A program made the translations under genes and the position numbers. The notes under the pieces were generated by a model. It had not been told where the DNA came from and ran no database searches. It saw nothing but the letters and a program-made list of their open reading frames with translations. Of a stretch of DNA of 64,000 bases, positions 11,970 to 60,491 are shown in pieces (position 1 is the stretch's first letter; each line of letters opens with the position of its first letter). The DNA comes from Rhizophagus irregularis (lineage: Eukaryota), in the NCBI RefSeq assembly GCF_026210795.1, contig NC_089436.1, forward strand, positions 1,488,001 through 1,552,000. The letters run 5' to 3'.

Positions 11970-13687
11970 GCAAGTTTGATTACAATGGTAAAGAAAAAAA
12001 AATAAAAGTCGCAATAGCAAACTACATTCCCATGCAATATATCTCATTTCCTCTGAAATTTTTTTTGCTACACGTACGATATTCTTTTTTTTTGGCAGAT
12101 TTCGTGTAATCATGATAGACATCATCATTATGTCTGAAAATTCTCTGAAATAATGTAATTAGAAAAGCCTCATTAAATCTGTGTAACAATAAGTAATAAT
12201 ACATACTTCTATCAATAGCATCATCTTGTAAATATCCGCTAACTTTACCCAGTCGTCCTCAAATTTCTGAGGCACCTCTAGCTCGAAAATTTTTTCGGCA
12301 AGACATTTATCTTTATCGGCCAAGCATACTCGCCAGGATTCACTTTGATTTTCTAGTTTATTGTTTGAAAGTCAGCACCAAATGTTTATTTTTGAAGGCA
12401 ATACAATTCTAAAAACTAAACTATGTACTATATATGTTAATACGATATATTTCCTAGATATTTCTGCATCCCCTTGTCTGTTAGTCCAGAATCTCTTACA
12501 AAGAGTATCAACCGCGTTACGAAATGATCTCTGAAATTTTTCAAGATACGACTTGTTAGAAAGTAATTTAGCTTTTTTAAAGAATCTAATCTCTTAACAT
12601 ACCTGTGATATTTTGGAGGTTTTGTTTTTCCTGGCGAGCACACATTCTCAAACACCAATCTTTCGATCTTGCTATTATTATCAAAAAGTATCCCATCGCA
12701 TTTTCGACCGGTCTTCTTATTAGATTTGTATACGTTTCGTCTTCATTTTGACGATGGGTATATCATTTCGCACCACGAACTTATGAATAGGCTAGGTTCT
12801 TTGTTTTTCAATACTTCAAAATCCGGAGCAATCCACGTAGCAATTTCACCGTATAAATACATGATTTATTATAAACAACGGGTAGAACCTCTCGTCAAAT
12901 TCATCGTCAGTTTTGTCATAGTCGTTTTCGTCTCCTACATCATCTTCTATTAAGCTAGACATAAGATGGATAGTTAATAAATAAATAATCGTATTGATTT
13001 ATACTACCACTGACCTTTCGACATTATCACAATTTGAATATTTTTCCAGTGGACTAGTTTCACGGCGTCTTCTCTTGCTTTCACGGGCAAGATCATCTAC
13101 CCATTTTTGTCCGATGATAGTGTCAAACTCCATAACTCTTTTTTCTGCATTTGCCCTATGCTGAGAGTTAAAAAATATATCATAAATAAACACGGAACCA
13201 CTCCAAAATTTCTCAAAGTTATGCAATATTTAAATATATTTATACCTCTGCAGAATGTTCAGTAAGCTTACTCCAGTATTGATGACAATCTTCAGATGTT
13301 TTGCATACTGCCTCATTTCCTTTTCTAATTTAATAGGCCTTCGACCACATCTTTAAGAGCTTGTTCTGCTTGGATTCGTTGGTCGTGCTTGAATTTAAGC
13401 TCTTCAAAAAATAACATTGCGACTTCCGGACTTTTCATTGATGGAAATCAAACCTTCTGTATTTAATTTTTTTCTTTTATAATTTCCACGAGTAGACGAT
13501 TGCGTAAAGTCTTCGGATCTGGGTTTCCCCTCTTTCTAAGAATTGGGTTTCGCCCCATTCTTTAGGATTAAAAACTAAAACACGAAAAAATAAGATCACG
13601 CGTAAATCTATAAACACGTGCAAATTACCCAATTCTGATCGTTTCCTCAGAAAAAAAAATTGATATGTCTGTATTACAGTCGGTACC

Positions 13688-16600
13688 GCAAATATATCGT
13701 TTTTGATTAAGGAGGTGATGCTTTTTGATTATAGAAGTTAGTTGTACAAACTGTTGTATCGTTTTTGATTATTGAAAAAATAAATGTATCATTTTTGATT
13801 ATTGAAAAAAAAATTCTATCGTTTTTGATTATTGAAAAAAAATGTATCATTTTTGATTATTCGATAGTATCACATGGTCACATGCATAGATTCGACATAC
13901 TGTACATATCGGAGACTTTATTCACTAAATAATTTCAAATTACTAAACTTATTAATCGTTATTTTTGTTTCCTTACTATTTACTGTTTCTTGTATATTTT
14001 TATTAAGCCATTTAAAACAAAGAATTGCCAACATTCATATGTCATAAATTTAATCCTTATTTTCTCAAAATTTGTCTTTATTACAACTAAAAGACAATAG
14101 TATTAATCAATCATCTATTTCATTGCTATGCATATAAACTCCAAATTCAATACTATCATTTAAAATTTCTTTCGCATCTTCAAGTGTTATACTATTATTA
14201 CGGTCCTCTTGAATCAGACGTAATGTTACTTCTGGTACTAGAACTTCGTAAATAAAATCCATAGGGTCTAATGGGTACGTTTTGTCTTTTGTGAGATTAT
14301 TAGAGTTAACAAACAATTCTATTAAAGTATTAACAATAGTATATAACCCATTAAACCCATAATAACCTGGCTGTAAATTAGTAAAGCTAATTAATAAAAT
14401 ATAAACAAAATTTATATTCAAACAGATAATTACCAACCTGAAAAACTTCAAATCGATTCATGAGCATCATTGGCGCCTTGGCTTTATTATATCCGACTTC
14501 TTTATATATTGAAGATGCAATATCCCAATAGTAACTTGAAATATTTCCGTTAATAATTTCAATGAGATCTTTTTCAAATTTGATTATGCGTGATGGAAGT
14601 ACATTAAAATCGATATATTCAGGATATCCTTTTGATAATCCATGTGGAACAATATTCAATTCACCATGATGCATTATACAAAAAGACCAACGTTCTTCTT
14701 CTGTGATTGGCTTGTTTTGTAGATTTTGTAACTGGTCTTTTATCTTTTCTGGTAAAATATCTGGTAGGATATTATCACAATAGGGGCATAAATTGTGAGA
14801 ATTAGGTACTAAATCAAATTCTAAATCCAAGTTTAAATCATCATTAGATGGCAGTTCTGGAAGATATTGAAATACATTGCGGGGTGGGCTTGGCATTATA
14901 AACGATGATGATGATGCAAATGAAGATGTACTTCTTCTATCTATTAAATAAATATAGGTAAAGAAATTAATAATACAGATATTAATGTTATTACGTTAAA
15001 TATATATCTTTACCAGTACTAATTGAAGATAAATTATCTTCTCGTTTTCGTTTAAGATTTCGAATTTGTTTTGTTTTCCTTTGTTGTATAGAAAACGTAT
15101 TACCAGATTGTGATTGGTTTGGTAAATTTATTCTATGGGACGATCGAGGTTTAGCAGATAATTTAGGAGGTGCGCCTAAATTTGATTTTGTTCTTTCACT
15201 TAATTCTGCTGGCCGAAATGGATCTTTAATCTCCTGAGATGACCGTTTAAGTGGATAAAATATTTTATTACCTAATGAGCAAAAGTAAGATTAATATAAT
15301 AAATAACAATAATAATTTTTAAAAAATTATTTCAAACATCTTACCTTGCATATTATATAATCTAATAATTTCTTGATAAGAATCTTCCATGTCACCTTGA
15401 TATATTACATTATTTTTTATAGACGCGGGAACTACTCGTTCCTTATTACGAAAATAGAGAACAAGATTTTTCTTTGCTTCGTTTACAACTTCTAGATGTC
15501 CTTTTTGTTGTGTTTCTATAAGCAAAGTGGCTGCATGACAGTGCCTACATTTATCACGTAATGAACTATTCCATATGTATTCCCAGCATGTACATTCACC
15601 AGTAATAACATTACATATATGAAATCCTTGTTCTAATATTACATTTTCGGATAATAAAGATTTCATAAGAAAATTGATCATATCATTTAATTTTCGTACA
15701 ATTTCCTCATCTAGACGCAAAGGCTTATCATCATAAGAAGATACGAATAAATCATCAGATTTTTTTTTAACAAGAAAAGTATTTTGGTCTGATGATATCT
15801 TAACCATATTAAGAAGAAAATCTAATCTTCCTTGATTTAATCTTCGAAGTTTATCACAACATATCATATCATCTTTAGTTTGCTATAAATAATTTAAAAT
15901 AAATTAATTTAATAATATTATTTAAAAATGATAACGAAAAAATTCTTACCTGTTCAATCGTTTGAGTATTGAATAAAGTAACTAAACCAGATTCAAACTT
16001 ATTTAAATCTTCATGACTTACAATAGTTTCACTTTGAAATTTTATTCCATACATTCGTTCAACAAATGTCAATGGTGTTTGTTTACCACTATATACTGCT
16101 TCAATTGTCCTATTGATCCGTTCTGTAAAATTGTTCGTAGTCCATGGAAATCTGTTTGTAATGTTTTTGGAAATACGACCAGCATCAATAAAACTTAATT
16201 TCCACTCCGTGCACATCCAATTTTTAGATAAATCATCTATTAATTTATCTTTTTTAGTTTTTTCCAATGGAAGAGTGTTAATAAATTCGATATATTTCTT
16301 AGCCATTTCAATGGCAGTTTCTTCAGTTCGACTACGACCTACAATTTTAAACGCTAATGCTATTGGATATCTAAACAATAAATAATTAATTAGTTATCAA
16401 TTTTAATAAAAAAAAATTAATATAATATATAACTTACCTGAATTTTGCAGGTATCTGCCATTTATTTAAATTTTCACTAAAAGTTTTCATAATATGAAAC
16501 CAACATAAAATTGGTTTATGTGAAGCATTTTGGATAGCAAGTTTAGATGGTCTATGCTTATCAATTAAGATATATGGCTTCCAATTATTGTTTTCGACAT

Positions 16601-18363
16601 TCACGAACTCGTTGAAATCCGTTTCCAGATAAAAGATTTTCATAGTACCACTTGTGTTCACAGAACTCGTTATCACATGGGATATTTTTTTTAATAGCGT
16701 CAATAGCCAATTTTATAGTATGATGATTTTCCTTATTAAATAGCGCTAATATATATATTTTATTTACAATTTAATAAATTACAATAAATTATATACTAAA
16801 TAATTTAATATATGTCAAATTTTACTTACCAAATGCAACAGGCAATCCGCAACCAGCACTATTCTCAGTAACAATTGATAATACCGGTGCACGGTCCAAA
16901 TTTAAATCATATTTACCATCTATTCCGATACAGATTTTACCGTAATCACGAGCATTTTTTAACCAAAACTCATCAGAAATTGTAAGTTGATAATATCGGT
17001 CAGGTGAATCAGCTGGTTGATTAATGTCTGCTATTTGATAATATAATATAAAACCTTGAGATTTTAATATATTATTTACTAAACTATCAAGCTGAGTCCG
17101 AGGACCAGTATCATCCTTTAATTTCTTATCATCTCTGGCAACAAATTGCCGGAGTTTGTCATTATTACATATTATACGTTGGCTTGCTAATGCATTGTTA
17201 ATTACTTCTTCTGATGCACCATTAAGTGATGTTAATAATTTCGCTTTTATCCCTTTGGCTGTCCTGTGGTCTGCTCTTCTGCTTAATGCTATCGAATCTC
17301 TGACAGAATAAGTTAAATTTATTCTTGAAATTTTAGGAATATTATTATTGTAAAATGTACGATGAGTTCCTTGAATGGTAATTCGCAATGGATTTTCTAA
17401 TGATAGCCAAGATAACCGACATTCAGAAATAACTCGACACTACAATGGTGCATATCATTTCCATTTTTCAAATTATTTCGTAAATTATAATTTTCACAAT
17501 TTTCATTACATTTTCCAACACTACCGCATAATCTTTGACAGTTGCCTCCATCACCTGAACAATACATAACCCAATACCAACATTGTTGGTTTTTGGCTAA
17601 TCCTAATTCAATTTGAGAAACCAGATCTCTTCCTAAACTGGTTAAAACTAAAACATCATCAATACGATTTGTTGATTTTACCGTTCCAGTTTTAGTTTTC
17701 CATGCTAAGTAATCTATTGCCCCTTGTACACGTTCTACCGTTAAGATTCCAGCTTTAACAAGTTTAGGAGTAACTTGTCTACTTTGATTTTTTAAGCGAT
17801 AATTTTTTAAAAGATTTGCATTTGATATATACCATTCTGCAGCACGACCAAATGGTACATTTACTGAGCCATCATCGTTGTATTTGATTTGATTTTCGTA
17901 AGTTTCCATATTATAATATATAGTAACGTTACACAAATTTATAGAAAGAAAATTATTACAAATAATTATCACGTAAAAAATATAAACAAGGTTATAAAAC
18001 GCAAAATATATTATAAAAACTATTATATAATAAAGAAAAAAATATCAAAAGAGAAATCAAAATTTTTGGAAAAGAAAAAGAATTGAACCATTTGTCGTGT
18101 GAAAAGTATTATGTGAACGCGTTAAATGTTATACAATGATACATTAACTTGTTAAGTATAAATTAAATAAATAAAACGTGATACTATCGAATAATCAAAA
18201 ATGATACATTTTTTTTCAATAATCAAAAATGATAGAATTTTTTTTTCAATAATCAAAAATGATACATTTATTTTTTCAATAATCAAAAACGATACAACAG
18301 TTTGTACAACTAACTTCTATAATCAAAAAGCATCACCTCCTTAATCAAAAACGATATATTTGC
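13688..18363 (-). mobile_element. Full-length Mutator-like (MULE) DNA transposon, 4676 bp
   Basis: Near-perfect ~186-bp TIRs (13688-13873 / 18178-18363) with internal tttttgatta repeats. Exact 9-bp TSD gtcggtacc at 13679-13687 and 18364-18372. Internal MULE transposase. Confidence 0.93.
14107..17909 (-). CDS. Multi-exon MULE transposase with SWIM finger, spliced to a C-terminal RTC4-like domain; one apparent frameshift near 17436
   Basis: DDE-type motifs IGIDGKYDL, ILIDKH, LCWFHIM, TTNNFTERIN. SWIM CTCWEY...CRHCH. Downstream exons join in frame to CPYCD...FCIMHHGELNIVPHGLSKGYPEYIDF...QPGYYG. Confidence 0.8.
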
Positions 18364-18989
18364 GTCGGTACCGATATTCTATGTACCGATATAAATTGCC
18401 TGTACCGATAAATTTTTGTTGTCCCATTTCACAATTAATAAAAAAACCTCGTTGTACCGATATTATATATAATTTCGCGATGTATAGTAAGGTATACCGA
18501 TATTTTAGGTTACACTGATTTAATTCAGGTCGGCACTATAAACTTGGCCTGAATTAACAAGAGGATTTCCATCATTCCATCCAAGTAATTAGATTTTTTA
18601 GATCTTGTTTCAACACAAAATGTGAACAACTTTTGTTTCATGAAATGTATGTTAATGAGAAGCTATAATTTAATCTTTAAATAAACTCGAGAGTTTGCAT
18701 AATGCCTTCAAGAATTAGACTTTGGCCTACATTATGATTCACTATGTAATGATAATTTGATGTAACGATATATTTTACCCAAACCAACAGCATCGGTATA
18801 TTGAGGTCTGACTGTATACATGTTATTTTTGATGCAAGGTTCATTGATAATCGAACACAAAATTTATATTGAGAATGTATATACATATAAAACAAGTACA
18901 CATGTTTAAAAATTGGAAGTAAAATCTTTATTATATTTTTTTGTAATGTAATATATGAGAAAGGGCTGGCTGGAGGAATGTAACAATAG

Positions 18990-21855: not shown

Positions 21856-23028
21856 ATGACTGATCACATAGAAGATTCACCCATTAAAATGAAAAATAGA
21901 GGAGGTCGGCCACCTAATAGCATTTGGGAAGATATTAATAAAGGAGAAGCTGTTGGTTCTGGCAAATTTGCCGCCTCCTGCAAGTACTGTAAGAATACAT
22001 GGTCACGCGGTGAAGTTTCAAAGCTCAAAGAGCATCTTTCAAACCATTGTCCAGATGCGCCAGCAGCAGTTGTTAGAAGGTATATGACTAAAGTAATGGA
22101 ACGGCAAGATAAGTCCAAGTCATCCAAAAAAAGAAAATACTCTGAAGGTCAAAGTAACATGGATGATTACCATGATTCAACAGAGCTTAACGAACAAAGA
22201 TGTACACGAATTAATCGTGCATTAGTTAAATTTTTTATTGCGTGCGGAATTGCGTTTAGAGTAGTGGAACATCTCTTTTTCATCAATTTTATAAAAGAGC
22301 TTAATGCCGGGTACAATACACCAACAACGGAAGTATTAGTAAATCAACTACTTGAACGTGAATTAGCTCAAGTGAACTTCAAAGTTAATTCTGAGCTTGA
22401 AAAGGAAACGAATTTAACGTTAGGTTTGTTAAATTAAATAGGCTATCATACGTCATTTTTATTTAATTGTCCGGAGCGAAGCGAAGGACTATATATGTTT
22501 ACGCACTATGATGATCTATGGAAATAACGTGTAAATTTTCAATCACGTGAGTTTCTCTGTCCAGGAATTCCAAGGCGTTATGCTGCTAATCAGCAGAAAA
22601 TTACCAGAATTCCAAGGCGTTATGCTGCTAATTAATAGAATATCGCTACATCTTTATTATTATACCTCGCTCCAGACTTACAACGGTTCCCATTTCCTAG
22701 TCTTACTTACTATATAATATTAATTTATAATTTAGCCTTTGATGGTTGGACGTCTGGTACACATCGTTCAATTTGGAACTTCATTGTAATGACTCCGTCG
22801 CGTAAAGAATATCTTTATCAACTTTCTGATTTGTCTGAAAATTCGCACACTGCAGAATATCTAGTTACGGTAATTGAAAAGGTTATAGAAGGTATTGGAG
22901 AAGATCGAATATGTGCTGTAGTTTCCGATAATGCGGCCAATGTTCGTAATGCACGAAAAATTATACATGAGAATCATCCAAAGATTGAGAATGTGCGATG
23001 CGTTGCACATTCTATCAATTTAATTGCA
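21856..23028 (+). pseudogene. hAT transposase with BED zinc finger, 3'-truncated
   Basis: BED finger IWEDI...CKYC...LKEHLSNHC. ACGIAFRVVE; spliced LTLAFDGWTS (first catalytic D); VVSDNAAN (second D); CVAHSINLIA (CxxH). The sequence then switches abruptly to a palindrome. Confidence 0.88.
22469..22700 (+). mobile_element. Small non-autonomous Helitron/Helentron-like insert inside the hAT intron
   Basis: Subterminal inverted repeat gtccggagcgaag (22469) / cctcgctccagac (~22665). Internal 26-bp direct repeat gaattccaaggcgttatgctgctaat. Ends in ctag|t. Confidence 0.45.
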
Positions 23029-23030
23029 TG

Positions 23031-23080
23031 AGCCATTTATGACTAAATAATATAATTATATTATTTAGTCATAAACGGCT
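23031..23080. repeat. 50-bp spacerless palindrome
   Basis: agccatttatgactaaataatataa|ttatattatttagtcataaacggct is self-complementary with one mismatched pair; centre at 23055/23056. Confidence 0.95.
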
Positions 23081-24385: not shown

Positions 24386-24830
24386 GTCACCAAGAAAATT
24401 TGTTAGTGACTCTCTTAGTGACGCTCTTAGTGACACCCTTGTATGCCTTTTTCGGTGTTTGGGGACGCTCGGTTCTCTTCTTTTATATTTGTCACTAAGT
24501 CACTAAGAGTCACTAAGAAAAAGTAAAGTTCTAGGAAAAAAAATCGAATTTTTTCTATGCTACTCCTATGGCTTATATGCGATATAGTATGATACATATA
24601 TGACATATGCGTGATACATATATGCTAAAAAAAAAATGAAAAAAAGTTATGGAACTCGGATTTTTCTTAGTGACTCTTAGTGTCATAGTGACACCTATCT
24701 AGAAACCTTCTGATGGCTCTAAAAATGTGAAATAGCTATAAATTTTGTCACCGAGAGCGTTACCAAGAGTGTCACCAAGAAATTCTACAATTTATTGTAG
24801 GTTCGTCCAAAAGGCCATAGGGATAGTGAC
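24386..24830. repeat. Non-coding cluster of TTAGTGAC/GTCACYAA motifs in alternating orientation (candidate origin or binding-site array)
   Basis: About 14 copies, e.g. 24386, 24403, 24415, 24427, 24491, 24499, 24509, 24667, 24686, 24746, 24771, 24824. Also a duplicated aaaagtaaagttmtaggaaaaaaa block and an AT-rich centre. Confidence 0.75.
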
Positions 24831-24846
24831 AACTTCTTATTCTTGT

Positions 24847-25170
24847 TTAAGTTCTCTCGATTAGCCTAAAATTACTTGAGCGGAATCTCTTTGGGACCAT
24901 CAGCTTGCTTAGCCAGCTTTTTTCGATGGTAATGTTCCTTCGATCTATGTTTTTTGCATGCGTATCGCAATAGTCATATTTGGATCTTGTCGGGTCACCA
25001 CATTCTTTGCAAAGAACTTGCCTAGAATTCCGATGGACTTTACATCCCTTTGGATCAAAGCATCTCCGATTACATACTTCTCCAGTTCTAAGAATATATG
25101 GACAATAATAAAAATTCCAGGATGGTGGTTCTCTTTTGAGAACTCGTGTCTCCTTTTTTTCGCCTTCCAT
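24847..25170 (-). CDS. Small Cys/His-rich putative zinc-binding protein
   Basis: CPYILRTGEVCNRRCFDPKGCKVH and CKECGDPTRSKYDYCDTH. Intronless, divergent from PolB. Confidence 0.6.
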   Translation of the reverse strand: MEGEKKETRVLKREPPSWNFYYCPYILRTGEVCNRRCFDPKGCKVHRNSRQVLCKECGDPTRSKYDYCDTHAKNIDRRNITIEKSWLSKLMVPKRFRSSNFRLIERT

Positions 25171-25367: not shown

Positions 25368-28300
25368 ATGGAGTGGTCGGGTAATCAGATATGGGGTGAA
25401 AGTTACTTGGCGGGTATCTCAGCCCGTGATAAATTAGCTATGAGAAATGACGAGAGTTCGACTTTAACTCTCAAAGTTGAGATAGCGAATCATCGAGATA
25501 TTCCATTCGTGTCATACGACATAGAAGAAGCTAAAGAGTATATTAATAAAATCCCCCATTATGTTCTTCGAATCTATGGACATCTCATTAATGGTCAGAA
25601 GGCAGTCGTAACTATCACTGGTATTAAGGTTTTCTTCGATATTCGCGTTCCCGAAAATTCGAGTATTCCTAAATTCTGGTCCAAAATTAAGGGTATACTT
25701 ACTACTGGAAAAGACAACCAGGGGAATAGAGTAGACATGAATCTGATCCGAAGGGAGTGCATAAAGGCATACCCTATTCGTGGCTACCATGCGGAAAAAA
25801 AGTCATATCTTCGCATCATTGCACCTAATAAAGATATAAGGTTCACTGCTCTCGATATCATTTCAAACTATAATTCGGAGGCTGATCCCGAATGTAAAAT
25901 AGAGACAGCTTCTGATGATACAGGTACATATTATCGTAAAGTTGCGAGAGAGTATAGGATACCACTTTCCGGATGGGGGTTAATAAGAGACTACAAATAT
26001 AATTTCGGAGCACCATATTATGCTCGTTCCCACCTTTGTCCACATGCGTTTTATGTCCATATCAAAAACTTCCGCCCCATAGACGATTTCGGACTACTTT
26101 ACGGAATCTATCTATCTTTTCTATTTACTCGTGACCGAGCATTAGTTCTAACATGGGACATAGAAACATACGATTCACGTGGATTAGGCAACTTCCCAGA
26201 AGCGAAAAATGACACGTCCCAGGTTTTTACGATCTGTATGACCCTACACTGGAAGGACGACTCAAAGCCACTAGAACAGATATGCCTTGTTGATGTTGAG
26301 ACGGCACCAAATCCGCGCTGGACAACCATCATATGTGGGAACTAAGTCAATTTATTAAAAGCTTTCGCTTTATGCTGGAAATCTTTTGCTCCAGACATCC
26401 AGCTCGGTTTTAATGACTCTGGTTATGATTGGCCATTTATAGTGGAGAAGGCCACTAAGTTAGAAGTCCTCGGATGGATGATTCAGCAAATCTCTGCGAA
26501 CCCACATAAGAAAGCTAATGCTCAATCTATTCTCACTTGGAATTATTTCAGTGGAACTGGAAAGCCACTAACTAATGGTTTCTTCCAAAAGAGCCAGTGG
26601 GTAAAGAAAACGGACAGGAGTCCCAAAAAAATATTAGGCCGAGATTCCATTAATATCAAAATCCATCCAACTTTAGACTTCGAATCCTCCTTTCTTAAAC
26701 TTCCCGGGTGTGTGCCGATTGATGTTCGTGCAAGTTTTATGCAACTCCACCCTCACTCTGAAAAAACATCACTTAAATTCTTCTTAGAAAAATGTGGTCT
26801 CGATGGCAAAGCTGATATGCCCATGAGCAAATTATGGGAGTATTATTCGGAAGCAAGGAATGGGACTTCCGACTCTTCCGTCAAAAATATGCATGAAATC
26901 GTAAATTATTGTGTTATAGATGCTTTACGTTGTCAGGAGCTCATGGTTAAAAATAATGTCATAAATGATTATAGAGAAGTTGCCTCGATCGCCCACATAT
27001 CATTATTTGACACACATTATTATGCCATAGGAATGAAAGTAGGTAATCTCTTGGGCGCTGAAGCGTGGGCGGAGGACATTCTATTCAGCATGAAAACTTC
27101 TGATCAGAAAGCATCTGGGAAGTTTCCGGGAGCATATGTATTCCCACCTGAGAAAGGTCTTGAAAATAAGCGACCGGTCACGGGTTTGGACTTCGCTTCC
27201 TTGTACCCTAGCATAATTATGACTTATAACCTCTCATCCGAGAAGATGGTCTCAACACTTTTGGAGGCCGATGAGTTAGGGAGAGAGAATAAAGTGCTCC
27301 ACAATATCAAGTTCAAGTATAATGGTAATCCTATACGAGCCTGGACTATACGGCATGGGAATAAGCCTGATCAGAAAGGTCTTTTCCCAAAGATATTGGA
27401 GAGATTGGGGAGAATGCGAAATGAAATAAAAGCCCAGCTAAAGCCCATTGGAAAGAAAAAGGAATATATGGGAAAGGTCAAAAGTAGAATGGATGCCAGC
27501 GGATCTATCTCAATAGCGGACGCATTCAAAGATGTTTTGTCCTCGACGAAGAATATGAAGAAGCGTGCTGAGATGGTTAAAATCTTAGATCCTTTTATTG
27601 ATTTATCGTATGATAATTTTATAAAAGAATACAGTTCTGTCTGCTTTGCCTATGAATCTTTAAATTCTAAGCAGAAAGCCATTAAATTGTATATGAATTC
27701 ATTCTATGGTGTGACGGGTAGAAGTGGCTCCCCATTCTACATACTCGAACTTGCTGGAGGTGTTACTTCGGCTGGGCAAGAAATTATCAAACGTGTCACA
27801 GAGTACGTTAGAAAGAAAGGCTTTGGGATAAAATACGGTGATACCGATTCCTTATATCTCACTTGTCCAGATTCCTATTTTGAGAAATACGATCTGGCTT
27901 ATAATGATGGGAAGGGAGAAATCTCTAAACTAGAGTATTGGACCGAGATGGTCAAGACTACTATGGGTGTAATAGAAAAATTGCGCAATGATGTGAACAC
28001 TTTCCTCAGGCTCAAGACTAGATCGGATTATCTTAAAATGGCCTACGAGGAAGTACTATTTCCAGTAGCGTTTACCAGAAAGAAAAAATATTTTGGCATT
28101 GACCATGAAGAGACCCCCAACTTCGAACCAAGAGAGCCTTTTATAAGGGGAATAGATACTGTGAAGCAGGGTAAATCCCAAGTTTTCAAAACTATAGGGG
28201 ATCGTATTATGCGAAGGGCTATGGATATTAATAACGTCCAATCACTCCATGAGATTGTTGAAGACATTCTCAGGGATGCTATAATTAATCATGAGCAGTG

Positions 28301-29285
28301 GAATTTTGAACAATTTATAGAGACTGACGCTTGGAAACCCGATAAAGATAACAAAGCTGTTCAGCGTTTTATAGGAAGAATGAGAGGAAAGTATGATAGT
28401 AAAATTCCGATACCAGGTGAGCGCTTTAGTTATGTAGTAACCCATCCCGATACTACCTTCGATTTACATGGTAGAAAGTTAAAACCAACTAAAGGCGAAA
28501 AAATGGAATTCGCCGATGTAGCTAAGGAATTGGGGAAGGAATTAGATTTATACCATTATTTCGAAAAAACTATTATTGGCCTCTGTGCCCGATTTATCAT
28601 GTATGATAAGAAGTATGAGCCAGAACCCTCAAGTCGAATCATGCGAATCGAAGACCCGGATGAGAAATATAAGCAAATTGATGACTATGCTCAAAACAAG
28701 GCCAAGTCATGGCTTGAGGGATTCGTAAAAGAAAATATCATAGTCAATGGTGTTACTTCCAAGATGATGGAATCTCGTGGGATTGCTTATAAGCGTGCTT
28801 ACAGAACTGCGGTCAAAAAGGCACAAGAAATGTTGTATCAAAAGATAGGGTACTTATACGAAATATTTCATGGCGAATGGCTTAGCTACGAGATTTTCAT
28901 GATAAGTAACCCTATCGAGGTATTATGGGAGAAATTTATGAAATGCGCTAGGAAAATTTCAAAAGATAAAAACCTCTCGGTAGATGACGAAATGAAGGAA
29001 AAAATATGCTCTGATTTTGCTCGATATCCTAGCGAGCTTGCAAAGTGTATTGAAGAGTATAATTTATTCTTTCACAAATTGGTCTATCATATGCGTTACA
29101 AAGAGCATGTGTCAATTCCAGAAGAAATCAGACCAGTTGCATCCATGCGAAAAAATGAGATAATTGCTGACCTACCTTCCTTACCTCACATATCAGAAAT
29201 TGGGGTACTAGATGAGATTAGTAATTTATGGTATTTCCATCTTGAGGATGTGACCGAGCCGGAGGCAGTAAAGCAAAGCACTTAA
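25368..29285 (+). pseudogene. polB: Family B DNA polymerase with 3'-5' exonuclease, large-DNA-virus (asfarvirus-like) type; one internal stop
   Basis: ExoI LTWDIETY, Exo[13 protein letters not shown], ExoIII YCVIDA, motif A DFASLYPS, motif [15 protein letters not shown], motif C YGDTDS, KKKY. The two ORFs are in one frame, separated only by TAA at 26343-26345 (32 open codons then join 26442). About 1305 codons, no introns. Confidence 0.93.
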
Positions 29286-29396: not shown

Positions 29397-31061
29397 TCAA
29401 TCTTCGATCTTCCGGCCTCCGATCATACATCCCGACCTCGGATATGCCCAGAGAGGATAAAAATAGTTCCGGTTAGGAGAATAGTCAGTATTACTTTTTT
29501 TCGATGAATTCCAGTATTTCCTGACCACAAACCATATAACCGCAATCAGTAGAAAAGCAAGTATGGAATATAATACCATCGGCGACATTAGAGAGTTAAT
29601 AACGACAGGAACAGTCACTGATGCTAGAGGCATTTCTTGGGACAATGGTACTACTTCTGCGCCACCTGAATGCTTCGCAATCCCTTTTCTCGAAATGAAA
29701 TTTTCGGAATGTGCTGGTAGACTATGAACGGATTGATTAGATAGGGTAACTGCCTGGTTTCGAGAAACCATCTCATCCCGGGGTAATAGCTCTTGCAAAG
29801 CCTCTAATATATTTTCTCTGGCAAAACTTTTATCGAGTTCCATAACTTTATTTTCAAGACCATGATTATAGACGAGGGGTCTTAGATCATCACTGACCCA
29901 ACCTGGAATCTTTTGCGATGAATCATTCATAGGCGGAGGTGGAGTATTAGAGAGATCTGCTTAAGGTTGCTTGTCTAAACCTCTTCAAAATCCTACGATT
30001 AGTTTCGTCAAAATTTTACTATAGATTTATTATAGTTTCGGCAGAGTTTCAGCAGTTTCGGCATTTATAATAAGTTTCGGCAGTTTCGCCTTTCTCCAAA
30101 GTTTCACCAGTTTTTTAATATAACTTTAATATAGTTTCGGCAGAATTTCGCTTTTCGGCGAAACGCCATCTTGCCTAAACCTCTAGGTTTCGGCAAGCAA
30201 CCTTAGATCTGCTATTTCATTATCTTTCTTTGAGATTATCTCTTGGAGACGAGAATTTTCCTCCATCATTTTTAATCGTTCTGAAGACCGAATATCTAGC
30301 TCCCGTTTGTATATGTTATTCGACGCCTCTATCCCCTTTTCCATACATTCTATTTCATATTTTTTTGAATTTCGATCTTCCTTTACTTGTTCTAATTCAA
30401 GTCTGAGAGAATCGATCTCTTTGGGGTCAGGGTCAGATGGGTTGGTCCCAAAGGGACCGTTTATTTGGGCCAGATTCTCTATCATCCCTCCTATTACATC
30501 CAAACCATGATATGTACGCTCTAGATCTATGTCCTCCAACTTACCTTCCAATTCACGTATTTTAACTTCAAGAGAGAGAATCTTGATCTTGTCAGCGGAC
30601 GAAGCTTTCTGGGTCAAAGTTGCCTCTCTTTTTAGTGTTTTAATAGAAGATTTGAGCGATTGGATTTCAGCAGTATATTTGGCTTCAAGCTCACGTTGGC
30701 TCTCAGAATGAGACTTTCGTTCAGAAATAAGTTGGGATCTAACTTTAACGCTAGACGCATTTAACTGGCCAATCTTATTCCCAATATCACTATAGCTTCG
30801 CTGATACTCCTTTTCTCGCTCATTGTACTTATCTACCAGTTTTTCACTGAGATCATTAATCTCAGAGTTAAATTCAGTAACGGATCTTAATTTTTTTTCG
30901 AGCTCTTGCTCATATGCACTACCCAGCCGATGACCAGGTTTTTTATAAGAACCACCTTCTCTATCTTTTATATCATTCAATGTATGCACTTTGGACATAA
31001 TATTAGCATGGTTATATATTAGAAAAAAAATGCACGAATAAATTTCTGAGATAATAGACAT
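29397..31061 (-). pseudogene. Coiled-coil protein with a C-terminal transmembrane helix, interrupted by a hAT MITE
   Basis: Removing 29962-30205 plus one TSD joins ...DNEIADL to SNTPPPPMNDSSQK in frame. TM segment MVLYSILAFLLIAVIWFVV followed by RK. Confidence 0.8.
29962..30205. mobile_element. hAT MITE, 244 bp, same TIR family as the hAT at 21397
   Basis: TIRs taaggttgcttgtctaaacct / aggtttcggcaagcaacctta. Exact 8-bp TSD gatctgct at 29954-29961 and 30206-30213. Confidence 0.95.
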
Positions 31062-31251: not shown

Positions 31252-31794
31252 ATGCTCAGACAACGCATGAGATGTGAGTCCCCTCCTTTTTCACCAGCCG
31301 ATTATGATCATATTATGCAATGTGCTGAAAAAAAGCCTAGAGATAAAGTTTTAAAGGATTTAACAAATAAATATCGCACATCACAAAAACGTATTTATCA
31401 GATCTGGAGAGGTGAAGAAAAAAATAGGGTTGCGTGGAATCAACCAATTCATATGTCAACAGCTGGTCCTGGAGGGACTGCTTCGCTTTCTAATATAAAT
31501 GTTGTGGACGGGCAGATCGAGCCAAAGATCCAAGGCCAAGACGTTTCTCCATTTACAGAACTGGAAAAACAAATACGTGATGCTAAGATAGAGCCTAGCA
31601 AATCTATTGATTCAGTTTTGGAAGAAGGTGGGAAGGCAAAAAAGGCCGGAGGGAAGAAATTGAAGTCCAAGGATGGGATACCACCGCTAATACCATCTCC
31701 TATCCAGTCTCAACCAATTCCCACGTCGCATGAGAAGATAGTTGAAAGAAACGTAAAAAATATAGCAAATATGAAGAATATATTAGAAAAATAA
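31252..31794 (+). CDS. Hypothetical protein, possible N-terminal HTH
   Basis: Intronless 180-aa ORF; LKDLTNKYRTSQKRIYQIWRG has a helix-turn-helix-like pattern. Confidence 0.5.
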   Translation: MLRQRMRCESPPFSPADYDHIMQCAEKKPRDKVLKDLTNKYRTSQKRIYQIWRGEEKNRVAWNQPIHMSTAGPGGTASLSNINVVDGQIEPKIQGQDVSPFTELEKQIRDAKIEPSKSIDSVLEEGGKAKKAGGKKLKSKDGIPPLIPSPIQSQPIPTSHEKIVERNVKNIANMKNILEK

Positions 31795-31927: not shown

Positions 31928-32809
31928 TCACTTTTTTTTTAATACATCATCATCCTCACTTAAATCCTGCAAAATACAGTCCGGAGTCGAGGATTCATCA
32001 CATTTGGAAGTAGTGGTCGCACAATTCACCTCGAGCTTATTCTTGACCTTATGCATATTAATTGGGATAAAAAATTCCTTACCATTACACTCTAGTCTCA
32101 ATTCCCGCTTTGATGCAAGTAAATCATAATTATATTTATCAAGAAGCGTGTTGGGTAAGATTAGCATCGGCTTAGGGTATTTGACTACAGCAAAATCAGC
32201 ATATATAGTACATCCGGGAGCGAAATTTACTGGGACATTTCTGACAATTCCAAGGGATTCTGTGGGAGTAGTAGCAATGCCTCTGAGATCATGTTTTTCT
32301 TTTGTATCAATTTCTAGCTTTGATCGTTTAGAGATATCATCTGTCATAATCAGAAAATTAGCACCAGGATCAACTATGGCACCCGGAATGACTAGATGCT
32401 TGATTTTGCACTTAGTAGTAACAACATCTGTGGCGGGATCTTTTTTCTGAACGAAATCGATTTCCATAGGCTCATTTAGAATTTCGTCTTCCCCACCTGA
32501 GTCTGGAGTTTCAGGAGTATCCGAAGTGGAGTCATCTTTACCATCAATCAGTATTCTGGAAGCAGAATTCTGCGATTGAAAAAAGGCTATGATGTCGCCA
32601 AACTTTTCATTAAGCACCTTCTCAATAATTTTCTCAATAATATTTTCCAAGCGGGATTGATTATCCTGTGACAGGGATTCTGAACTTCGCTTTTTCTTTT
32701 TAGAGAAAAAAGCTGTCTCTATATCTGTTACCTCTTGAGACTTAGCCGTAAGGCGACTCTTTGATTTCTTTTTTAGTGAAGAGGAAGGATTACTCGATTC
32801 TTTCTTCAC
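31928..32809 (-). CDS. Retropepsin-like aspartic protease, in the -1 frame relative to Gag
   Basis: AIVDPGANFLIMT (D-x-G active-site motif with P at x), LRGIAT flap-like segment, DFAVV...MLIL pattern. Overlaps the Gag stop at AAAAAAAAAGTGA. Confidence 0.8.
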   Translation of the reverse strand: MKKESSNPSSSLKKKSKSRLTAKSQEVTDIETAFFSKKKKRSSESLSQDNQSRLENIIEKIIEKVLNEKFGDIIAFFQSQNSASRILIDGKDDSTSDTPETPDSGGEDEILNEPMEIDFVQKKDPATDVVTTKCKIKHLVIPGAIVDPGANFLIMTDDISKRSKLEIDTKEKHDLRGIATTPTESLGIVRNVPVNFAPGCTIYADFAVVKYPKPMLILPNTLLDKYNYDLLASKRELRLECNGKEFFIPINMHKVKNKLEVNCATTTSKCDESSTPDCILQDLSEDDDVLKKK

Positions 32810-34991
32810 TTTTTTTTTGCCTTAGTAATATTAATATTAATATCAGCTTCGGACTCAGATTCGGATGAAGAACTCGAACCAGAATCAGAAGAGTCATCAG
32901 ACAACATATCAGAGTTAGTGTCCGAACCCGAATCTGAATCTAAAGTGGCAAGATTTACTTTACCTTTTTTAGACTTACTCTTCTTTTTTCTGGGACACTT
33001 ACGAGAATTGTGACCAGTTTTACCACAATTAGAGCATTTATGCTTGGCTAACTTTTTGACCACATTAACCATTTGAGAGTATTTTTTGGAAAGCTTGGTG
33101 TAATTGGTATTATTAACACCCAATCTCCTTATTAATTCGTCATTAATATAATTATCTAAGGATGTAAGATCTTTTGGTGCATCAACTGGCATTCCCAACC
33201 GCACTGCGCGTATATACATCTTTTCTAAGGCATCATTATTTTGGGGTTGTGCCTGAATCGGTTGAACTAACTGTGCTTCAAGGGAGGCTATTTTGGAATT
33301 TAACTTATCAATCTCAGCTGAAGAATTACTCTGATAATTTTGACCCCATTTAAATTGGGAGCACGCTCCAGCCACATGTCTTTTAGATTTGTAAAAAATG
33401 CATTAATACCGGCAGGAGTGACAGCTCGCATCCATGTATAAAGATCACCCGACAAGTGATTCTTAAGAAATCCTACAGTTTGGGCATCACCATCTGCTAC
33501 ACCTAATAATAAAGGTCGGATTCTTTTCTTTTATCAAGTATCTGGTGAGTCTGTGGGTAGAAATTTTTCTTGAGTTAATCTTTGAAGTGCCGACTGCCGA
33601 CTACCTACTGTTTCTCGTTGATAATGTGATCTCATCCAAGCGCGTAAAGTAGCTGGAGTATTAATATTAGCATTTCCGTTATATGGGTCTTGGGCAGGAA
33701 CTGGTAAATATTTTCCTCCCATCTGAGCTTTATAAATATCACACTTGACAGCATCATCAAAATCTCCGGCATTTGCATTTTCAAGAACAGTCATATGTCC
33801 TTGCGCGAATGATATTGATTGAATAAGCCTATCCAAATAATCGTCAGGAGGTTCTTGGCCTGTATACGGCTTATTTTTAGCAAGAATAGGTGCAATCAAA
33901 TTTAATACTGGTAAACGTCTAGCGTCAGCCATATTTCCTAATGGATTATTCTGAAGCGCCAAAATTTGTCCCTGCAAATTTAAAATATTCTGGTCTCTTT
34001 GCCTAATCACTAGTTGGAAAACAAACTTTTCACGTAGCAATTTACCAATGCGGGTTTGTTTTCTTGCTATAATAACTAACATCCTATTTACCTGGTTTTG
34101 GGCATTGGTCTGCAACTGTCGGGTATTTTGCTGAAGACGGTTAGTATTTCGCTGATACAATAGCTGTTTAGCAAATTTTTCTCGTAATAGTTCCTGAATA
34201 CGTCTATCTTTATCCTGATATGAAAACATCCAGCGACAGGATTCTTGCCTCTCATTATTATAGGCCAACATAGCCAAGTCCCGCTCTCCTTGAGCATTGT
34301 CCCTTTCTCTCACAGTTCTTTCAACTCGAACTCGGGATTCATCTAATAAACGTTGAAATCGTAAATTCTAGTTTCTAATATCTCTTAACTGATTCCCAAG
34401 ATCCCGTTCCCGGTTATTTGTATCATTTAATATGTTCTGATACTGATCACGCTCGGCTGTAATATTTTGCAAAGTAACCCGAATAGTATTTAATGAGCCT
34501 CTGATACCATCTATAACATTAGCAGGATTCTGCATAGGAGTACCAACTCCCCTAATGTGATTTTCAATTCGATCTAACCCTCTATTAACATTTGCGATAA
34601 GATTGGTCGTTGCCATATCTAAAGCATTTATTGAGATTTTTTTATCTATGAGAATCCAGATTCTTGCTTTAAGACTCCCAACCTTATTTTCAAGCTCTAT
34701 GATTCGTCCATCTTGAATAGACCTAACCTCATCTTTGAATTTCTTATCCTGTTGTAAAACCCTAAGCTGTTTTCGCAAATCGGATATTTCTGATTTAAGT
34801 TTCTCTATCTCTTTCTCATGTGCTATGATAGTATTATCCTGTATTGAGATAGTTCGATAACATTGCTCAAGCTCTTTTACCAGAGATCGAATTTTTTTCT
34901 CATTGCTCTTATTAATGAAAATCTCATCTTGAAGCTCACCACGAAGCTCTTGATTCGTATCTAAAAGCTGTGAATATGTCAGATCAAACAT
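32806..34991 (-). pseudogene. gag: Gag-like protein: N-terminal coiled coil, capsid-like domain, CCHC zinc knuckle
   Basis: ORFs 34991-34368 and 34313-33534 are one frame split by TAG. Capsid-like YTGQEPPDDYLDRL and LQRLTQEKFLPTDSPDT..KRIRPLL. Further stops at 33531-33536 and a frameshift near 33345, then CSNCGKTGHNSRKC. Confidence 0.78.
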
Positions 34992-35037: not shown

Positions 35038-36714
35038 TTGAGAATGAGTCAACCGCAAATTGTGATAGATCCCGATGAAGAGCTCCGTATAGTCTGTAGA
35101 CTTCTATTTTATAATATACCCGGTTTTCATCCCAATGCAAAAAAATTACATAAAGCATGTCAGGAGGAAGGATATTCTTTTCGATTACAGGATATCGCAA
35201 AATGGGTAAAATACCAATATAGCTACCAAATCTATCAACAGCCATTGCCATGCAAAGCTGAGGCGAGTTTCTCAAAAATCAAAATTCCAAATAAGGTGCA
35301 CCAGTGTGATATTTTGCTCCATACTCATGATGACCAGGATGGAAGAAGGGTATTCGTTTGTAGTTTTCTAGTCATAGATGTGGCAACACGTTTTAAGGCT
35401 GGACGTTCATTAACATCAAGAAATAGTTTGAAAATCTGGAATGCGGTCGAAGAAATATATGAGGACCCCTCTAATCCTCTTACATGGCCAGGATTATTGA
35501 TGACTGATGGTGATGCTTCGTTCCGAGGTGCATTTTTACGAGGGATGGAACAGCATAATGTTCCAATACGTGTTGTCGACCTTTATAGTTTCGAGAGCCT
35601 GGCTTTGATCAAAGCATTCAAGAAAAATCTAGCAAAATTAATATATAAGGTCCAATATGCTATAGAGGGGCGATTGGCCGAAGGAGAACGATCAAGACTA
35701 TGGAATAAAATTCTTGAGAAATACATTGATTTTATGAACAATAGCAAGACTCGCCTTATCGGAATGTCACCAGCTCATGCTATGACTTTGGAAGAGGTCG
35801 AATCGAAACCTTCTAGTAAAGCTAAACGGGCAATTAGGAGACACGAAGAGATAAAGTTAAAAAAGGGTACAGCGGTTAGATATCTATTGAAACCGGGTGA
35901 GCTGGAAGGTGATCACAGGCATCGAGCAACTGATCCGTACTGGTCATTACGTGTATACAAGATCAAAAGAGTTGTTGTCGGAAGGAATCCACCACAACCA
36001 GTCTTATATTATCTCGAGAATGAGCCCATTGAATCCACTGCTCACTTGATAGGACGGAACCCCAAGTGACCCTTCAAATATGAGGAACTTCAAGTGATTG
36101 AAGAATCTGATAAAATCGAGTATCCACCAGATGAATTTATGCAAAAATACCACCTTACTGGATTCATCCATTATGTTAATGCTTCCAGTAGTAAGTCAGT
36201 TCAGGCCGTGGATTATGCCATGAAGCGTGATGGGCAATGCCTTAGAAAGACCGGGCAAATAAATGGTCATGATGTGTATCTTTGGTCTTGCAAGAATGGT
36301 GCACACCAGTGGGAGTATCCACTAAAATATATTATGAAAAAATTCGAATGGTGTCCTCTTTGCCATCATAGAAGCGGTGAACGCCAATGCCGATATATTT
36401 TTGAGGATCTACTAGGCAAGAAATTTCCATCATGTAGGCCGAATTTTTTGCATGGAATGCAACTTGATGGATATAACGAAGAGTTGCAACTAGGATTCGA
36501 ATTTCATGGCAAGCAACACTATAGTCTTAATTCAATGTTTCATAGAAGAGGCCAGATAGATTTGGATGAACAGAGAATACGCGATCAGAAGAAGCAGGAT
36601 ACTTGCAAGGAGCAAGGTATATGTCTTATCGAAGTGCCTTATACTGCGGATCTTTTTCCATACATTAAGCATACACTAATCGAGAAAGGATTCTTGAGTA
36701 ATTCTTCAAGTTAG
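35038..36714 (+). pseudogene. Polinton/Maverick-type DDE (rve) integrase fused to a Zn-ribbon and PD-(D/E)XK-like nuclease; one internal stop
   Basis: [68 protein letters not shown] at 36067-36069 is the only break before ORF 36094. C-terminal [15 protein letters not shown] and [21 protein letters not shown]. Confidence 0.85.
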
Positions 36715-37558: not shown

Positions 37559-38251
37559 CTAAGGACGAAATGTATATTTTTTCCTGGTTTCTAGATCATA
37601 TTCAGATTCATCACGCCTCTTCGCCCATAATTTCCTTTCATGAGTACTAGAATATATTTCCGGTTCTATAGTCACATCACTATGCTTCGTATTGGAAAGG
37701 ATCTGATCAACAAGAGCGACAATTTTCCCGTCCTTAGCGGAAATAATATCCTCCAGATTCCGGCATCTATTCTCTAACAGGTCAATGGATTTTTCGGCAG
37801 ACGCAATAGCTTTTTTCGTATCAGGAATTATACTTTTGAAGATAGCTACCGAATCTGATAATTGGGTGACTTTCCCACCACTCTCCTCCAAAGACCTGGT
37901 CATGGCTACCTCACGAGACTTATATTGCTCTTGCAAGTCGAGAAGCTCTTCAATCTTTTTTTCCAATGCCCGTTTTGATATACACAACTCCTCATTTTCT
38001 TGCCTTAACGAAGTTTCACAGTCGCTGGTAATAGGCTTCATCTTCTGACGCTCTTTTTGCTTAATATAATTTCCAACCGCCTTATTTAACAAATCTTCCA
38101 CTTCGGGATGGATACTACTTGCCTGTTCTAACGATAATGGGTGTTTTCGGGATATAAGACGGCGCCATATATCTATCTTGATGGAACGAGGAAGCTGGTT
38201 AAGTTGCTTTGAGTAATATACATGAAAAGATGGGTTTAGCATATTAGTCAT
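37559..38251 (-). CDS. Hypothetical coiled-coil protein
   Basis: Intact intronless 230-aa ORF with a heptad-rich centre. Confidence 0.6.
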   Translation of the reverse strand: MTNMLNPSFHVYYSKQLNQLPRSIKIDIWRRLISRKHPLSLEQASSIHPEVEDLLNKAVGNYIKQKERQKMKPITSDCETSLRQENEELCISKRALEKKIEELLDLQEQYKSREVAMTRSLEESGGKVTQLSDSVAIFKSIIPDTKKAIASAEKSIDLLENRCRNLEDIISAKDGKIVALVDQILSNTKHSDVTIEPEIYSSTHERKLWAKRRDESEYDLETRKKYTFRP

Positions 38252-38399: not shown

Positions 38400-38792
38400 A
38401 GAGATCTGCTTGAAAACCGTGACACGATCAAAAATCCACATGACATCCGATCATTGGTCAACAAGAAAAAAATCATTTTGGGCGACAGGCCGTCGCTGAA
38501 ATTAATACATGATCATGTCTTTCGAGATACAGATAGCAAATTTTTTATTAATTCGTTCACCCCTCAAATCATAGATTTTTGGGTGATAGATCTCATGATA
38601 GGATATGCTTTGTGAAGTGCCTGACTAACATTTTTTCGAATTTATGAGAAAAAAGCGCTTATCTTCCAATTTCGCAACTCTAGCCTTAAGCTCAGCATTT
38701 TCGGCCTTAATTTTATTGTACTCGGCCTCAAGCTCGCCAATGTATTGTTTTAATGAATCGATCTCACTGGGATAATTTATTTCAGATTACAT
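38400..38792 (-). pseudogene. Decayed paralog of the coiled-coil gene at 48161-49618
   Basis: Reads M*SEINYPSEIDSLKQYIGELEAEYNKIKAENAELKARVAKLEDK and retains the ISATA motif DNA; upstream sequence is shared with 49650-49720. Confidence 0.65.
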
Positions 38793-39025
38793 GCTTGCGT
38801 AATGTAGTATTAGTATGTTAATATTCAAAAATAAAAAATCATGTGATTTTCCCTCACGGCCCGTAAGTGAAATTTGCCAAGAAATTTTTTATTATCTGGT
38901 GCATATCCCACACGAAAAAATACAGAGAATATGTAAAAATAATCGGCCACCAGGGCACTTTATTGATATAGGAAAAATAAAATACAAATATGTTATGTTA
39001 GCATAGCTAATCTAAAGAAATGTTT

Positions 39026-49618: not shown

Positions 49619-49792
49619 GATCTATATAAAACTAATACACTGTATATAAGCATTCAAAATAAAAAATATATCACATGTTTTTGGGCGACGGGCCGTCGCT
49701 GAAATTTGCCAAGAAAATTTTTTTATTATTACATGCTAAAAAATAAATACAAATGTTCGGGACTGCGCCCACGATACATAACATTTATGGTA

Positions 49793-60482: not shown

Positions 60483-60491
60483 TGCTCCGGA

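What the first reader, a model, noticed from the sequence alone, without database searches (positions are those of the whole stretch)
25368..29285. PolB looks asfarvirus-like, not Polinton protein-primed and not host Pol delta
Seen: ~1305 intronless codons with long motif spacing and no C-terminal Cys clusters. Segments such as [24 protein letters not shown] and [15 protein letters not shown] resemble, from recollection, the African swine fever virus polymerase lineage. Inference: the replication module derives from an Asfuvirales-like virus but sits in a much smaller mobile context.
Basis: partly seen in the sequence, partly recalled or inferred. Interest (0 to 1): 0.72.

Follow-up and report, generated by a model that had tools for sequence, protein, structure and literature searches.

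The report
Giant-virus polymerase in fungal jumping element
This is a broken copy of a known swine-fever-virus-like DNA polymerase gene of a root-symbiotic fungus; the new part is that such polymerases sit repeatedly beside an integrase and a DNA-packaging-type ATPase (here also a retrotransposon-type Gag and protease), so they likely belong to a roughly 15-kb self-copying mobile element rather than being scraps of giant viruses.

Summary
The gene is an asfarvirus-type family B polymerase. Its best solved-structure hit is the African swine fever virus enzyme, 695 bits against 66 for Pol delta, and it has no protein-primed match. It is not an unbroken ORF: a real TAA interrupts codon 326. The host is an arbuscular mycorrhizal fungus (R. 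irregularis-like). These multicopy polymerases are already published ('fundsbetaviruses', 15-33 per genome) and were read as traces of repeated giant-virus infection.

What I did not find in print is their context. Here the polymerase precedes a retropepsin, a Gag-like gene, an rve integrase fused to a nuclease and an A32 ATPase. That cassette keeps its order in soil contigs. In public gene sets 6 of 51 cassette genes lie 5-14 accessions from such a polymerase (about 0.5 expected), and two more pairs share small contigs, across three fungal orders.

No jelly-roll capsid, reverse transcriptase or terminal repeats were found. Best reading: a dead copy of a Maverick-like element family with a swapped-in giant-virus polymerase and a Gag in place of the capsid genes. 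Boundaries and activity are untested.

The parts
25368..29285 (+). Asfarvirus-type family B DNA polymerase, pseudogene (in-frame TAA at 26343-26345)
24400..24775 (.). Nested palindrome of short GTCAC-type repeats just left of the first gene; possible end or origin structure (inferred, untested)
   Evidence: inverted repeat I6; fold z -7.64, 0 of 100 shuffles as stable
24847..25170 (-). 107-aa Cys/His-rich ORF, family unknown
   Evidence: no match above cut-off
29397..29930 (-). 177-aa ORF with a hydrophobic C-terminal stretch, family unknown
30183..31061 (-). 292-aa coiled-coil ORF, overlapping a very high-copy repeat
31252..31794 (+). 180-aa ORF, family unknown
31928..32467 (-). Retropepsin-type aspartic protease
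   Evidence: ESM Atlas 0.96, 170 of 256 features, 10 of 10 best hits in the same clan; no Pfam hit
32806..33219 (-). CCHC zinc-knuckle piece of the Gag-like gene
   Evidence: zf-CCHC 18.7 bits, below the 20.8 cut-off
33303..34991 (-). Gag-like gene: N-terminal coiled coil plus capsid-like domain; broken by stops at 34368-34370 and 33531-33536
   Evidence: Atlas lead 0.84 to Gag families; intact syntenic ORF in L045 passes the Pfam Retrotrans_gag cut-off (27 vs 24.1 bits); N-part shared with L045; breaks
35044..36714 (+). rve-type integrase fused to a giant-virus-type zinc-ribbon nuclease; TGA at 36067-36069; third catalytic position is Lys (D89, D155, K190)
   Evidence: fold of the intact copy in L040
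36783..37544 (+). A32-family packaging-type ATPase, intact
   Evidence: Pox_A32 29.5 bits, cut-off 22.8
37559..38251 (-). 230-aa coiled-coil ORF that follows the ATPase in other copies
   Evidence: 25 of 42 loci with room
38890..39000 (.). Approximate right limit of similarity to other copies
   Evidence: L003, L035, L061 matches end at 38979, 38999, 38894; unbroken, identical contigs of two runs start at 38957

Best explanation
The gene is a stop-broken asfarvirus-type DNA polymerase that likely belongs to a dead copy of a roughly 15-kb Maverick-like mobile element of arbuscular mycorrhizal fungi, which would copy its own DNA with this polymerase and would reinsert by its integrase. Shown: the polymerase type, the break, the neighbouring Gag-like, protease, integrase-nuclease and A32 genes, the conserved order of that cassette, and repeated polymerase-cassette adjacency in three fungal orders. 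Inferred: an ancestral Maverick-type integrase/ATPase module lost its protein-primed polymerase and jelly-roll genes and took a polymerase from an asfar-like giant virus. Replication would be RNA-primed and lean on host clamp and primase, since the ASFV enzyme is poorly processive alone and none of these genes was detected in the element. Copies with D-D-E integrase would mobilise copies of the D-D-K type found here. Gag and protease, taken from an LTR retrotransposon, may form a particle; that step is the weakest. This copy cannot do any of this by itself: polymerase, integrase and Gag genes are all interrupted.
For: (1) Cassette order in 80 soil-contig loci: nuclease upstream of the ATPase in 45 of 47 loci with room, integrase in 16 of 16, Gag-like gene on the opposite strand in 6 of 6, coiled-coil gene downstream in 25 of 42. 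(2) 6 of 51 cassette accessions lie 5-14 accessions from a polymerase of this family on a contig of the same length; about 0.46 expected, assuming 26,000 genes per assembly, a recalled figure. These are R. irregularis x3, R. clarus x2 and D. epigaea Glove_207g8/g15. (3) Outside that count: Paraglomus 5237_t (PolB) and 5241_t (integrase), both on a 10,132-bp contig; and integrase P0459 on a 16,394-bp contig, the length of a POL-bearing contig in the Gong 2020 supplement. (4) The spacing of 4-7 genes in most pairs matches the window. (5) Linked polymerases come from all three Glomeromycota sub-clades. (6) 0 of 79 IMG/VR polymerase loci, 10 of them asfar-like, carry a cassette homolog in the fetched flanks of up to 10 kb; the nearest record has an NCLDV capsid gene and no rve hit (53% complete). 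(7) Zhao 2023 state that their small regions encode only PolB and/or a capping enzyme, and that 100 PolBs are distinct from the 1.5-Mb virus's PolB. (8) A 2026 preprint places Glomus/Rhizophagus A32 ATPases with Maverick-Polinton ATPases.
Against: 45 of 51 cassette accessions had no listed polymerase nearby. The lists were capped at 15 per cluster, 23 of 51 lie on contigs under 20 kb or of unrecorded length, and a likely ortholog of this very locus scored 62 apart, so the test undercounts, but it does not show that every cassette has a polymerase. No terminal inverted repeats between 23.0-25.4 kb and 37.5-41.5 kb, no target-site duplication and no empty site. Partners are mosaic: an ATPase 97% identical to the window's sits beside a polymerase only 50% identical. 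Raised GC (37-38%) continues to the window's end with a weak D5/primase-like ORF at 63135-63998, so the unit could be larger. Gag beside PolB is seen directly only in this window. Monophyly of the fungal polymerases is unresolved (30% of bootstrap trees). Rhizophagus also has protein-primed Maverick-type polymerases (PMC8502044 passage), which could be the cassette's usual partner.
Confidence: 0.62

Rival explanations
1. The polymerase is a remnant of an integrated asfar-like giant virus (the published reading), and the integrase/ATPase/Gag cassette is a separate Maverick-type element that tends to insert in such regions.
For: GC of 38% over 23.5-39 kb and 37% over 41-64 kb against 28% left of 23 kb, like the 36.6% of the 1.5-Mb viral region; weak D5/primase-like ORF at the window end; mosaic partners; no ends found.
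Against: No RNA polymerase, capsid, VLTF3 or capping-enzyme match among 39 ORFs and 88 stop-to-stop segments scanned. Spacing is similar in independent loci of three orders. These polymerases are distinct from the giant region's.
Confidence: 0.2
2. It is the provirus of a real mid-size DNA virus that packs its DNA with the A32 ATPase into a shell made of the protease-processed Gag protein.
For: A packaging-type ATPase is kept in all 80 loci by design of the search, and substitution counts against 5 loci are about equal for silent and replacement changes (27/25 to 52/66), which suggests past purifying selection. Gag and protease are the only capsid-like genes found, and no jelly-roll gene was detected here or by Zhao 2023.
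Against: From general knowledge, A32 ATPases work with jelly-roll capsids and Gag shells pack RNA. No relative of the ATPase or integrase was found in IMG/VR. A divergent capsid gene could lie outside the stretch examined.
Confidence: 0.14
3. It is a fungal replicative or repair polymerase (Pol delta/zeta paralog) or a protein-primed polymerase.
For: Some UniRef names call homologs 'DNA polymerase delta catalytic subunit'.
Against: 695 vs 66 bits, no Cys clusters, no PF03175 match, many copies, pseudogene.
Confidence: 0.02
4. The stop, or the whole region, is an assembly error or contamination.
For: None found.
Against: The stop is bridged unchanged in 3 of 3 DNA-type runs; 14 of 24 listed runs hold half or more of the words of 21-31 kb; spliced host genes flank it on the left.
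Confidence: 0.02

Closest known systems
'Fundsbetaviruses' / multicopy asfar-like polB of R. irregularis (Gallot-Lavallee and Blanc 2017 PMC5294986; Gong 2020 PMC7017919; Zhao 2023 PMC10640383)
   Same: Same polymerase family, host group, multicopy state and premature stops.
   Different: Those papers read the genes as lone relics of giant-virus infections. Gong's neighbour figure lists no rve, A32 or Gag for the Rhizophagus rows, and Zhao report A32 as undetected. Here the polymerase is tied to an integrase/ATPase/Gag cassette.
Maverick/Polinton elements, including those reported in Glomerales (PMC11952901; Pritham 2007, seen only as cited)
   Same: About 15-kb size class, rve integrase, A32 ATPase, own DNA polymerase.
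   Different: The polymerase is asfarvirus-type, not protein-primed; no jelly-roll capsid, penton or cysteine protease detected; Gag plus aspartic protease instead; no TIRs found; integrase fused to a nuclease.
African swine fever virus DNA polymerase (PDB 8YWG, PMC11417396)
   Same: Collinear over three stretches, with exonuclease and polymerase motifs.
   Different: Broken gene in a fungus; no ASFV-like companion genes detected; extra residues in the fingers region and a longer C-terminal part.
1.5-Mb giant endogenous viral element of R. irregularis strain 4401 (PMC10640383)
   Same: Asfar-related PolB, GC near 37% in a 28% genome.
   Different: That region has RNA polymerases, capping enzyme and VLTF3, and its PolB is stated to be distinct from the 100 dispersed copies.
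Ty3/gypsy LTR retrotransposons
   Same: Gag-like capsid domain, CCHC knuckle and retropepsin in the usual order.
   Different: No reverse transcriptase or RNase H, no LTRs, and the integrase lies on the opposite strand.

Membership tests
Asfarvirus-type PolB | Far closer to ASFV polymerase than to cellular family B enzymes | tested here: met
   695 bits vs 71 for the next unrelated entry and 66 for Pol delta
Asfarvirus-type PolB | Branches with named Asfuvirales in a tree | tested here: inconclusive
   My trees had no named ASFV, Pol delta or pPolB row. They group it with unnamed giant-virus contigs. Published trees place the family with Asfarviridae.
Pol delta/zeta | C-terminal CysA/CysB clusters | tested here: not met
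   4 scattered Cys in the last 250 aa
Protein-primed PolB | Match to PF03175 | tested here: not met
   no match at E<=0.01
Protein-primed PolB | TPR1/TPR2 insertions and terminal protein | not tested
   polymerase not folded
Maverick/Polinton | Protein-primed polymerase | tested here: not met
Maverick/Polinton | rve integrase | tested here: met
   Homologs P0433 and P0335 pass PF00665; the model of the L040 copy matches retroviral and mavirus integrases. The window copy is broken and has Lys at the third catalytic site.
Maverick/Polinton | A32-type ATPase | tested here: met
   Maverick affinity taken from a preprint passage, not tested by my own tree
Maverick/Polinton | Double jelly-roll capsid, penton, cysteine protease | tested here: not met
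   None in Pfam or PHROG scans. These libraries can miss divergent capsids; every ORF over 300 aa within 23.5-39 kb has another assignment.
Maverick/Polinton | Terminal inverted repeats | tested here: not met
Maverick/Polinton | Target-site duplication / empty site | tested here: inconclusive
   no joint skipping the element among the rows shown for 4 runs of short contigs
Giant endogenous viral element (Nucleocytoviricota) | Several hallmark genes (RNA polymerase, MCP, VLTF3, capping enzyme) | tested here: not met
   only PolB, an A32 of probable Maverick type and a weak D5-like fragment in the window
Giant endogenous viral element (Nucleocytoviricota) | GC shift against the host | tested here: met
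   28% to 38%
LTR retrotransposon | Gag and aspartic protease | tested here: met
   Protease. Gag rests on an Atlas lead and a Pfam pass in the syntenic L045 ORF.
LTR retrotransposon | Reverse transcriptase, RNase H, LTRs | tested here: not met

The most novel reading that the evidence does not exclude
Arbuscular mycorrhizal fungi carry a previously unrecognised class of integrating DNA virus built from three worlds: an asfarvirus polymerase, a Maverick integrase and packaging ATPase, and a retrotransposon Gag-protease shell in place of the jelly-roll capsid. It would account for most of the 15-33 'giant-virus' polymerases per genome and for the missing capsid gene.
Probability: 0.16. Interest if true: 0.92.

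Novelty: new variant of a known kind. Interest (0 to 1): 0.66.

Why it matters
The dispersed asfar-like polymerases of mycorrhizal fungi are cited as evidence of widespread, ongoing giant-virus infection. If most belong to one resident mobile family, that inference weakens, and part of the 'Maverick' expansion in these genomes is something else. It would also be a case of a Polinton-like element trading protein priming for a giant-virus polymerase, the reverse of the step proposed for giant-virus origins (recalled, not from a call), and possibly of a DNA element using a Gag shell. The claim can be tested at once on existing chromosome-level assemblies.

Tried and rejected
No whole genome is held for the window, so copies could not be mapped directly. 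IMG/VR scans with the single polymerase, single ATPase, ATPase alignment and integrase alignment found no relative; the prokaryotic genome scan found none. Metagenome loci were 1.0-5.2 kb, too short to reach the polymerase. A single-sequence fold of the L045 Gag domain was unusable (pLDDT 37.6), and the 50%-representative search never ran, so Gag has no structural confirmation. No RNA holder was listed, and the one raw RNA run laid gave 0 reads on a 601-bp stretch, which is no test. PDB sequence hits of the ATPase to nuclear-receptor zinc fingers are spurious; the profile gave only a weak STIV B204 ATPase hit (E 0.17). 4 of 5 giant-virus records were not held for whole-record search. A mixture-model tree did not finish. 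A motif search of the Zhao alignment file found nothing, probably because of gaps and cut cells. Four look-ups of earlier scan findings returned nothing. The reading that the 97%-identical database proteins are intact alleles was rejected: they skip the stop.

Full report
Observation. The + strand frame 25368-29285 holds a family B polymerase with all exonuclease and polymerase motifs and no C-terminal Cys clusters. It is interrupted by TAA at 26343-26345, codon 326. The stop is real. Contigs of 3 of 3 DNA-type runs bridge it unchanged. The 5 near-identical database gene models examined all skip it by an in-frame gap that removes sequence conserved in the ASFV enzyme, while 7 of 7 more distant copies run through. 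So this copy is a pseudogene, shared among several isolates.

Polymerase type. Read with X at the break, the best solved-structure match is 8ywg_A (E 1.5e-207, 695 bits); human Pol delta gives 65.8 bits. 8YWG is the ASFV polymerase (PMC11417396, passages). PF03175 is not matched. Of 662 homologs, the best 120 were listed; the top rows are Glomeromycota proteins, followed by environmental proteins on contigs up to 554 kb. In my trees the window falls inside well-supported Glomeromycota clades, next to unnamed giant-virus sequences. Whether the fungal copies form one clade is unresolved once distant asfar-like rows are added (subsets of 85, 41 and 35 rows chosen for length). No named ASFV, Pol delta or protein-primed row was available for these trees.

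What is already known. Asfar-like polymerases in R. irregularis were reported in 2017 (PMC5294986, passages), named fundsbetaviruses in 2020 (PMC7017919, parts 1-2 of 3 and supplement parts 2-3 of 7) and counted at 15-33 per genome in 2023 (PMC10640383, parts 1-3 of 5, supplement parts 1 and 264 and two searches). The last paper found no A32 or major capsid gene, and says the 100 dispersed polymerases are distinct from that of its 1.5-Mb viral region. Its supplementary tables were not in the held file. The gene as such is therefore already known.

Surroundings. GC rises from 28% (1-23 kb; spliced host genes and a hAT remnant) to 38% (23.5-39 kb). Downstream of the polymerase lie three small ORFs. 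Then, on the minus strand, come a Gag-like gene, a CCHC knuckle and a retropepsin. On the plus strand follow an integrase-nuclease fusion and an A32 ATPase, and on the minus strand a coiled-coil gene. Gag and integrase are also broken by stops. The Gag call rests on an Atlas lead of 0.84 and on the intact ORF at the same position in L045, whose capsid-like part passes the Pfam cut-off; that part differs from the window's, while the N-terminal part is shared. A model of the intact L040 fusion (mean pLDDT 58) matches IstA, retroviral and mavirus integrases, and giant-virus zinc-ribbon nucleases for its C-terminal part. The third catalytic residue is Lys in 132 of 134 close-homolog rows that cover it, and Glu in 26 of 32 distant ones.

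The cassette is conserved. Among the best 80 of 182 ATPase loci from metagenome contigs, the nuclease lies upstream in 45 of 47 with room, the integrase in 16 of 16, the Gag-like gene in 6 of 6, and the coiled-coil gene downstream in 25 of 42. These contigs are too short to reach the polymerase.

The polymerase travels with it. I compared the 80 polymerase and 51 cassette accessions listed in three cluster look-ups. Six cassette genes lie 5-14 accessions from a polymerase on a contig of equal length, against about 0.46 expected (the 26,000 genes per assembly is recalled). The pairs are GET03990/GET03996, GES99022/GES99016, GBC22393/GBC22388, CAB4476463/CAB4476468, PKY57259/PKY57253 and Glove_207g8/g15. 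Two more fall outside that count: Paraglomus 5237_t/5241_t on a 10,132-bp contig, and an integrase on a 16,394-bp contig matched by length to a POL contig in the 2020 supplement. A 30,681-bp contig there is probably this same locus (99%) and is not counted. The pairs span Glomerales, Diversisporales and Paraglomerales, all three polymerase sub-clades and both integrase types. Accession distance is a proxy for gene order, not a map. The other 45 had no listed polymerase nearby; capped lists and short contigs explain part of that, and a likely ortholog of this locus scored 62 apart. In contrast, 0 of 79 IMG/VR polymerase loci carry a cassette gene in the fetched flanks, and the closest record has an NCLDV capsid gene and no rve hit.

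What is missing. No jelly-roll capsid, cysteine protease, reverse transcriptase, RNA polymerase or capping enzyme was matched. No terminal repeats were found, and no empty site. Similarity to other copies ends near 38.9-39.0 kb. A strong nested palindrome lies at 24.4-24.8 kb, but nothing shows it is the left end. Partners are mosaic, both between polymerase and cassette and within the cassette, which fits recombination among copies but also an independent cassette.

Mechanism. Best reading (0.62): a dead copy of a Maverick-like element whose polymerase was replaced by an asfarvirus-type enzyme. It would copy itself in the nucleus with host priming and clamp (the ASFV enzyme alone extends under 14 nt) and insert by a D-D-E integrase, supplied in trans for D-D-K copies. 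The role of Gag, protease and ATPase is the least supported step. Rivals: giant-virus remnant with a nested separate element (0.20); true virus with a Gag shell (0.14); host polymerase or artefact (0.02 each).

Novelty. Mavericks are reported in Glomerales (PMC11952901, PMC8647823, PMC11075540, passages). Their ATPases are placed with Maverick ATPases from fragmented assemblies (bioRxiv 10.64898/2026.06.19.733378, passages), and protein-primed polymerases are noted in Rhizophagus (PMC8502044 and bioRxiv 10.1101/2022.05.25.493380, passages). Passages of PMC13533422, PMC5751038 and PMC12455990 and a term search of bioRxiv 10.64898/2026.10.13.758929 (0 hits) added nothing on context. Nine library searches gave no paper, among those I opened, that links the asfar-type polymerase to an integrase, ATPase or Gag. 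Subscription papers, Pritham 2007, repeat libraries and preprint supplements were not seen and could describe it.

Verdict. The polymerase is known and this copy is broken. The element it appears to belong to looks like an undescribed variant of Maverick-like elements. Interest 0.66.

Noticed in passing
window 13687-13873 and 18178-18364: 187-nt inverted repeats, 99% complementary, enclose 4.3 kb with several minus-strand ORF pieces, one matching RTC4 (E 7.7e-20): looks like a young terminal-repeat transposon.
   Followed up: no
window 21856-23080: hAT transposase remnant (zf-BED, DUF659) that stops at 23030, where a 50-nt palindrome begins; other copies run on differently.
   Followed up: partly
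window 63135-63998: ORF running off the window end with weak Pox_D5 and phage primase matches at its start; may be the tail of a primase-helicase of a further or larger element.
   Followed up: partly
window 35044-36714 and homologs: A large clade of these integrases has Lys in place of the third catalytic residue yet stays conserved and fused to a nuclease.
   Followed up: partly
window 33303-34991 vs L045 213-2177, L040 1-1596: The coiled-coil part of the Gag-like gene is shared but the capsid-like part is of a different type, as if swapped.
   Followed up: partly
window 38464-38503, 49034-49073, 49667-49706, 57074-57113: A 40-nt motif recurs, twice just upstream of minus-strand ORFs. By eye a similar motif and a relative of the 48161-49618 ORF occur in the first part of the published 1.5-Mb viral sequence (not aligned).
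   Followed up: no
window 47578-50059 and 55580-57485: Blocks repeated at 7.4-8.1 kb spacing, suggesting an old tandem duplication; an 82-bp tandem array at 51032-51523.
   Followed up: no
window 59472-60824: F-box/LRR ORF whose tail and the neighbouring 110-aa ORF look by eye like pieces of a second retropepsin.
   Followed up: no
public gene models P0001, P0241-P0243, P0247, P0339: Gene predictors skip the premature stops with in-frame gaps, so these pseudogenes appear as near-complete proteins in databases.
   Followed up: yes
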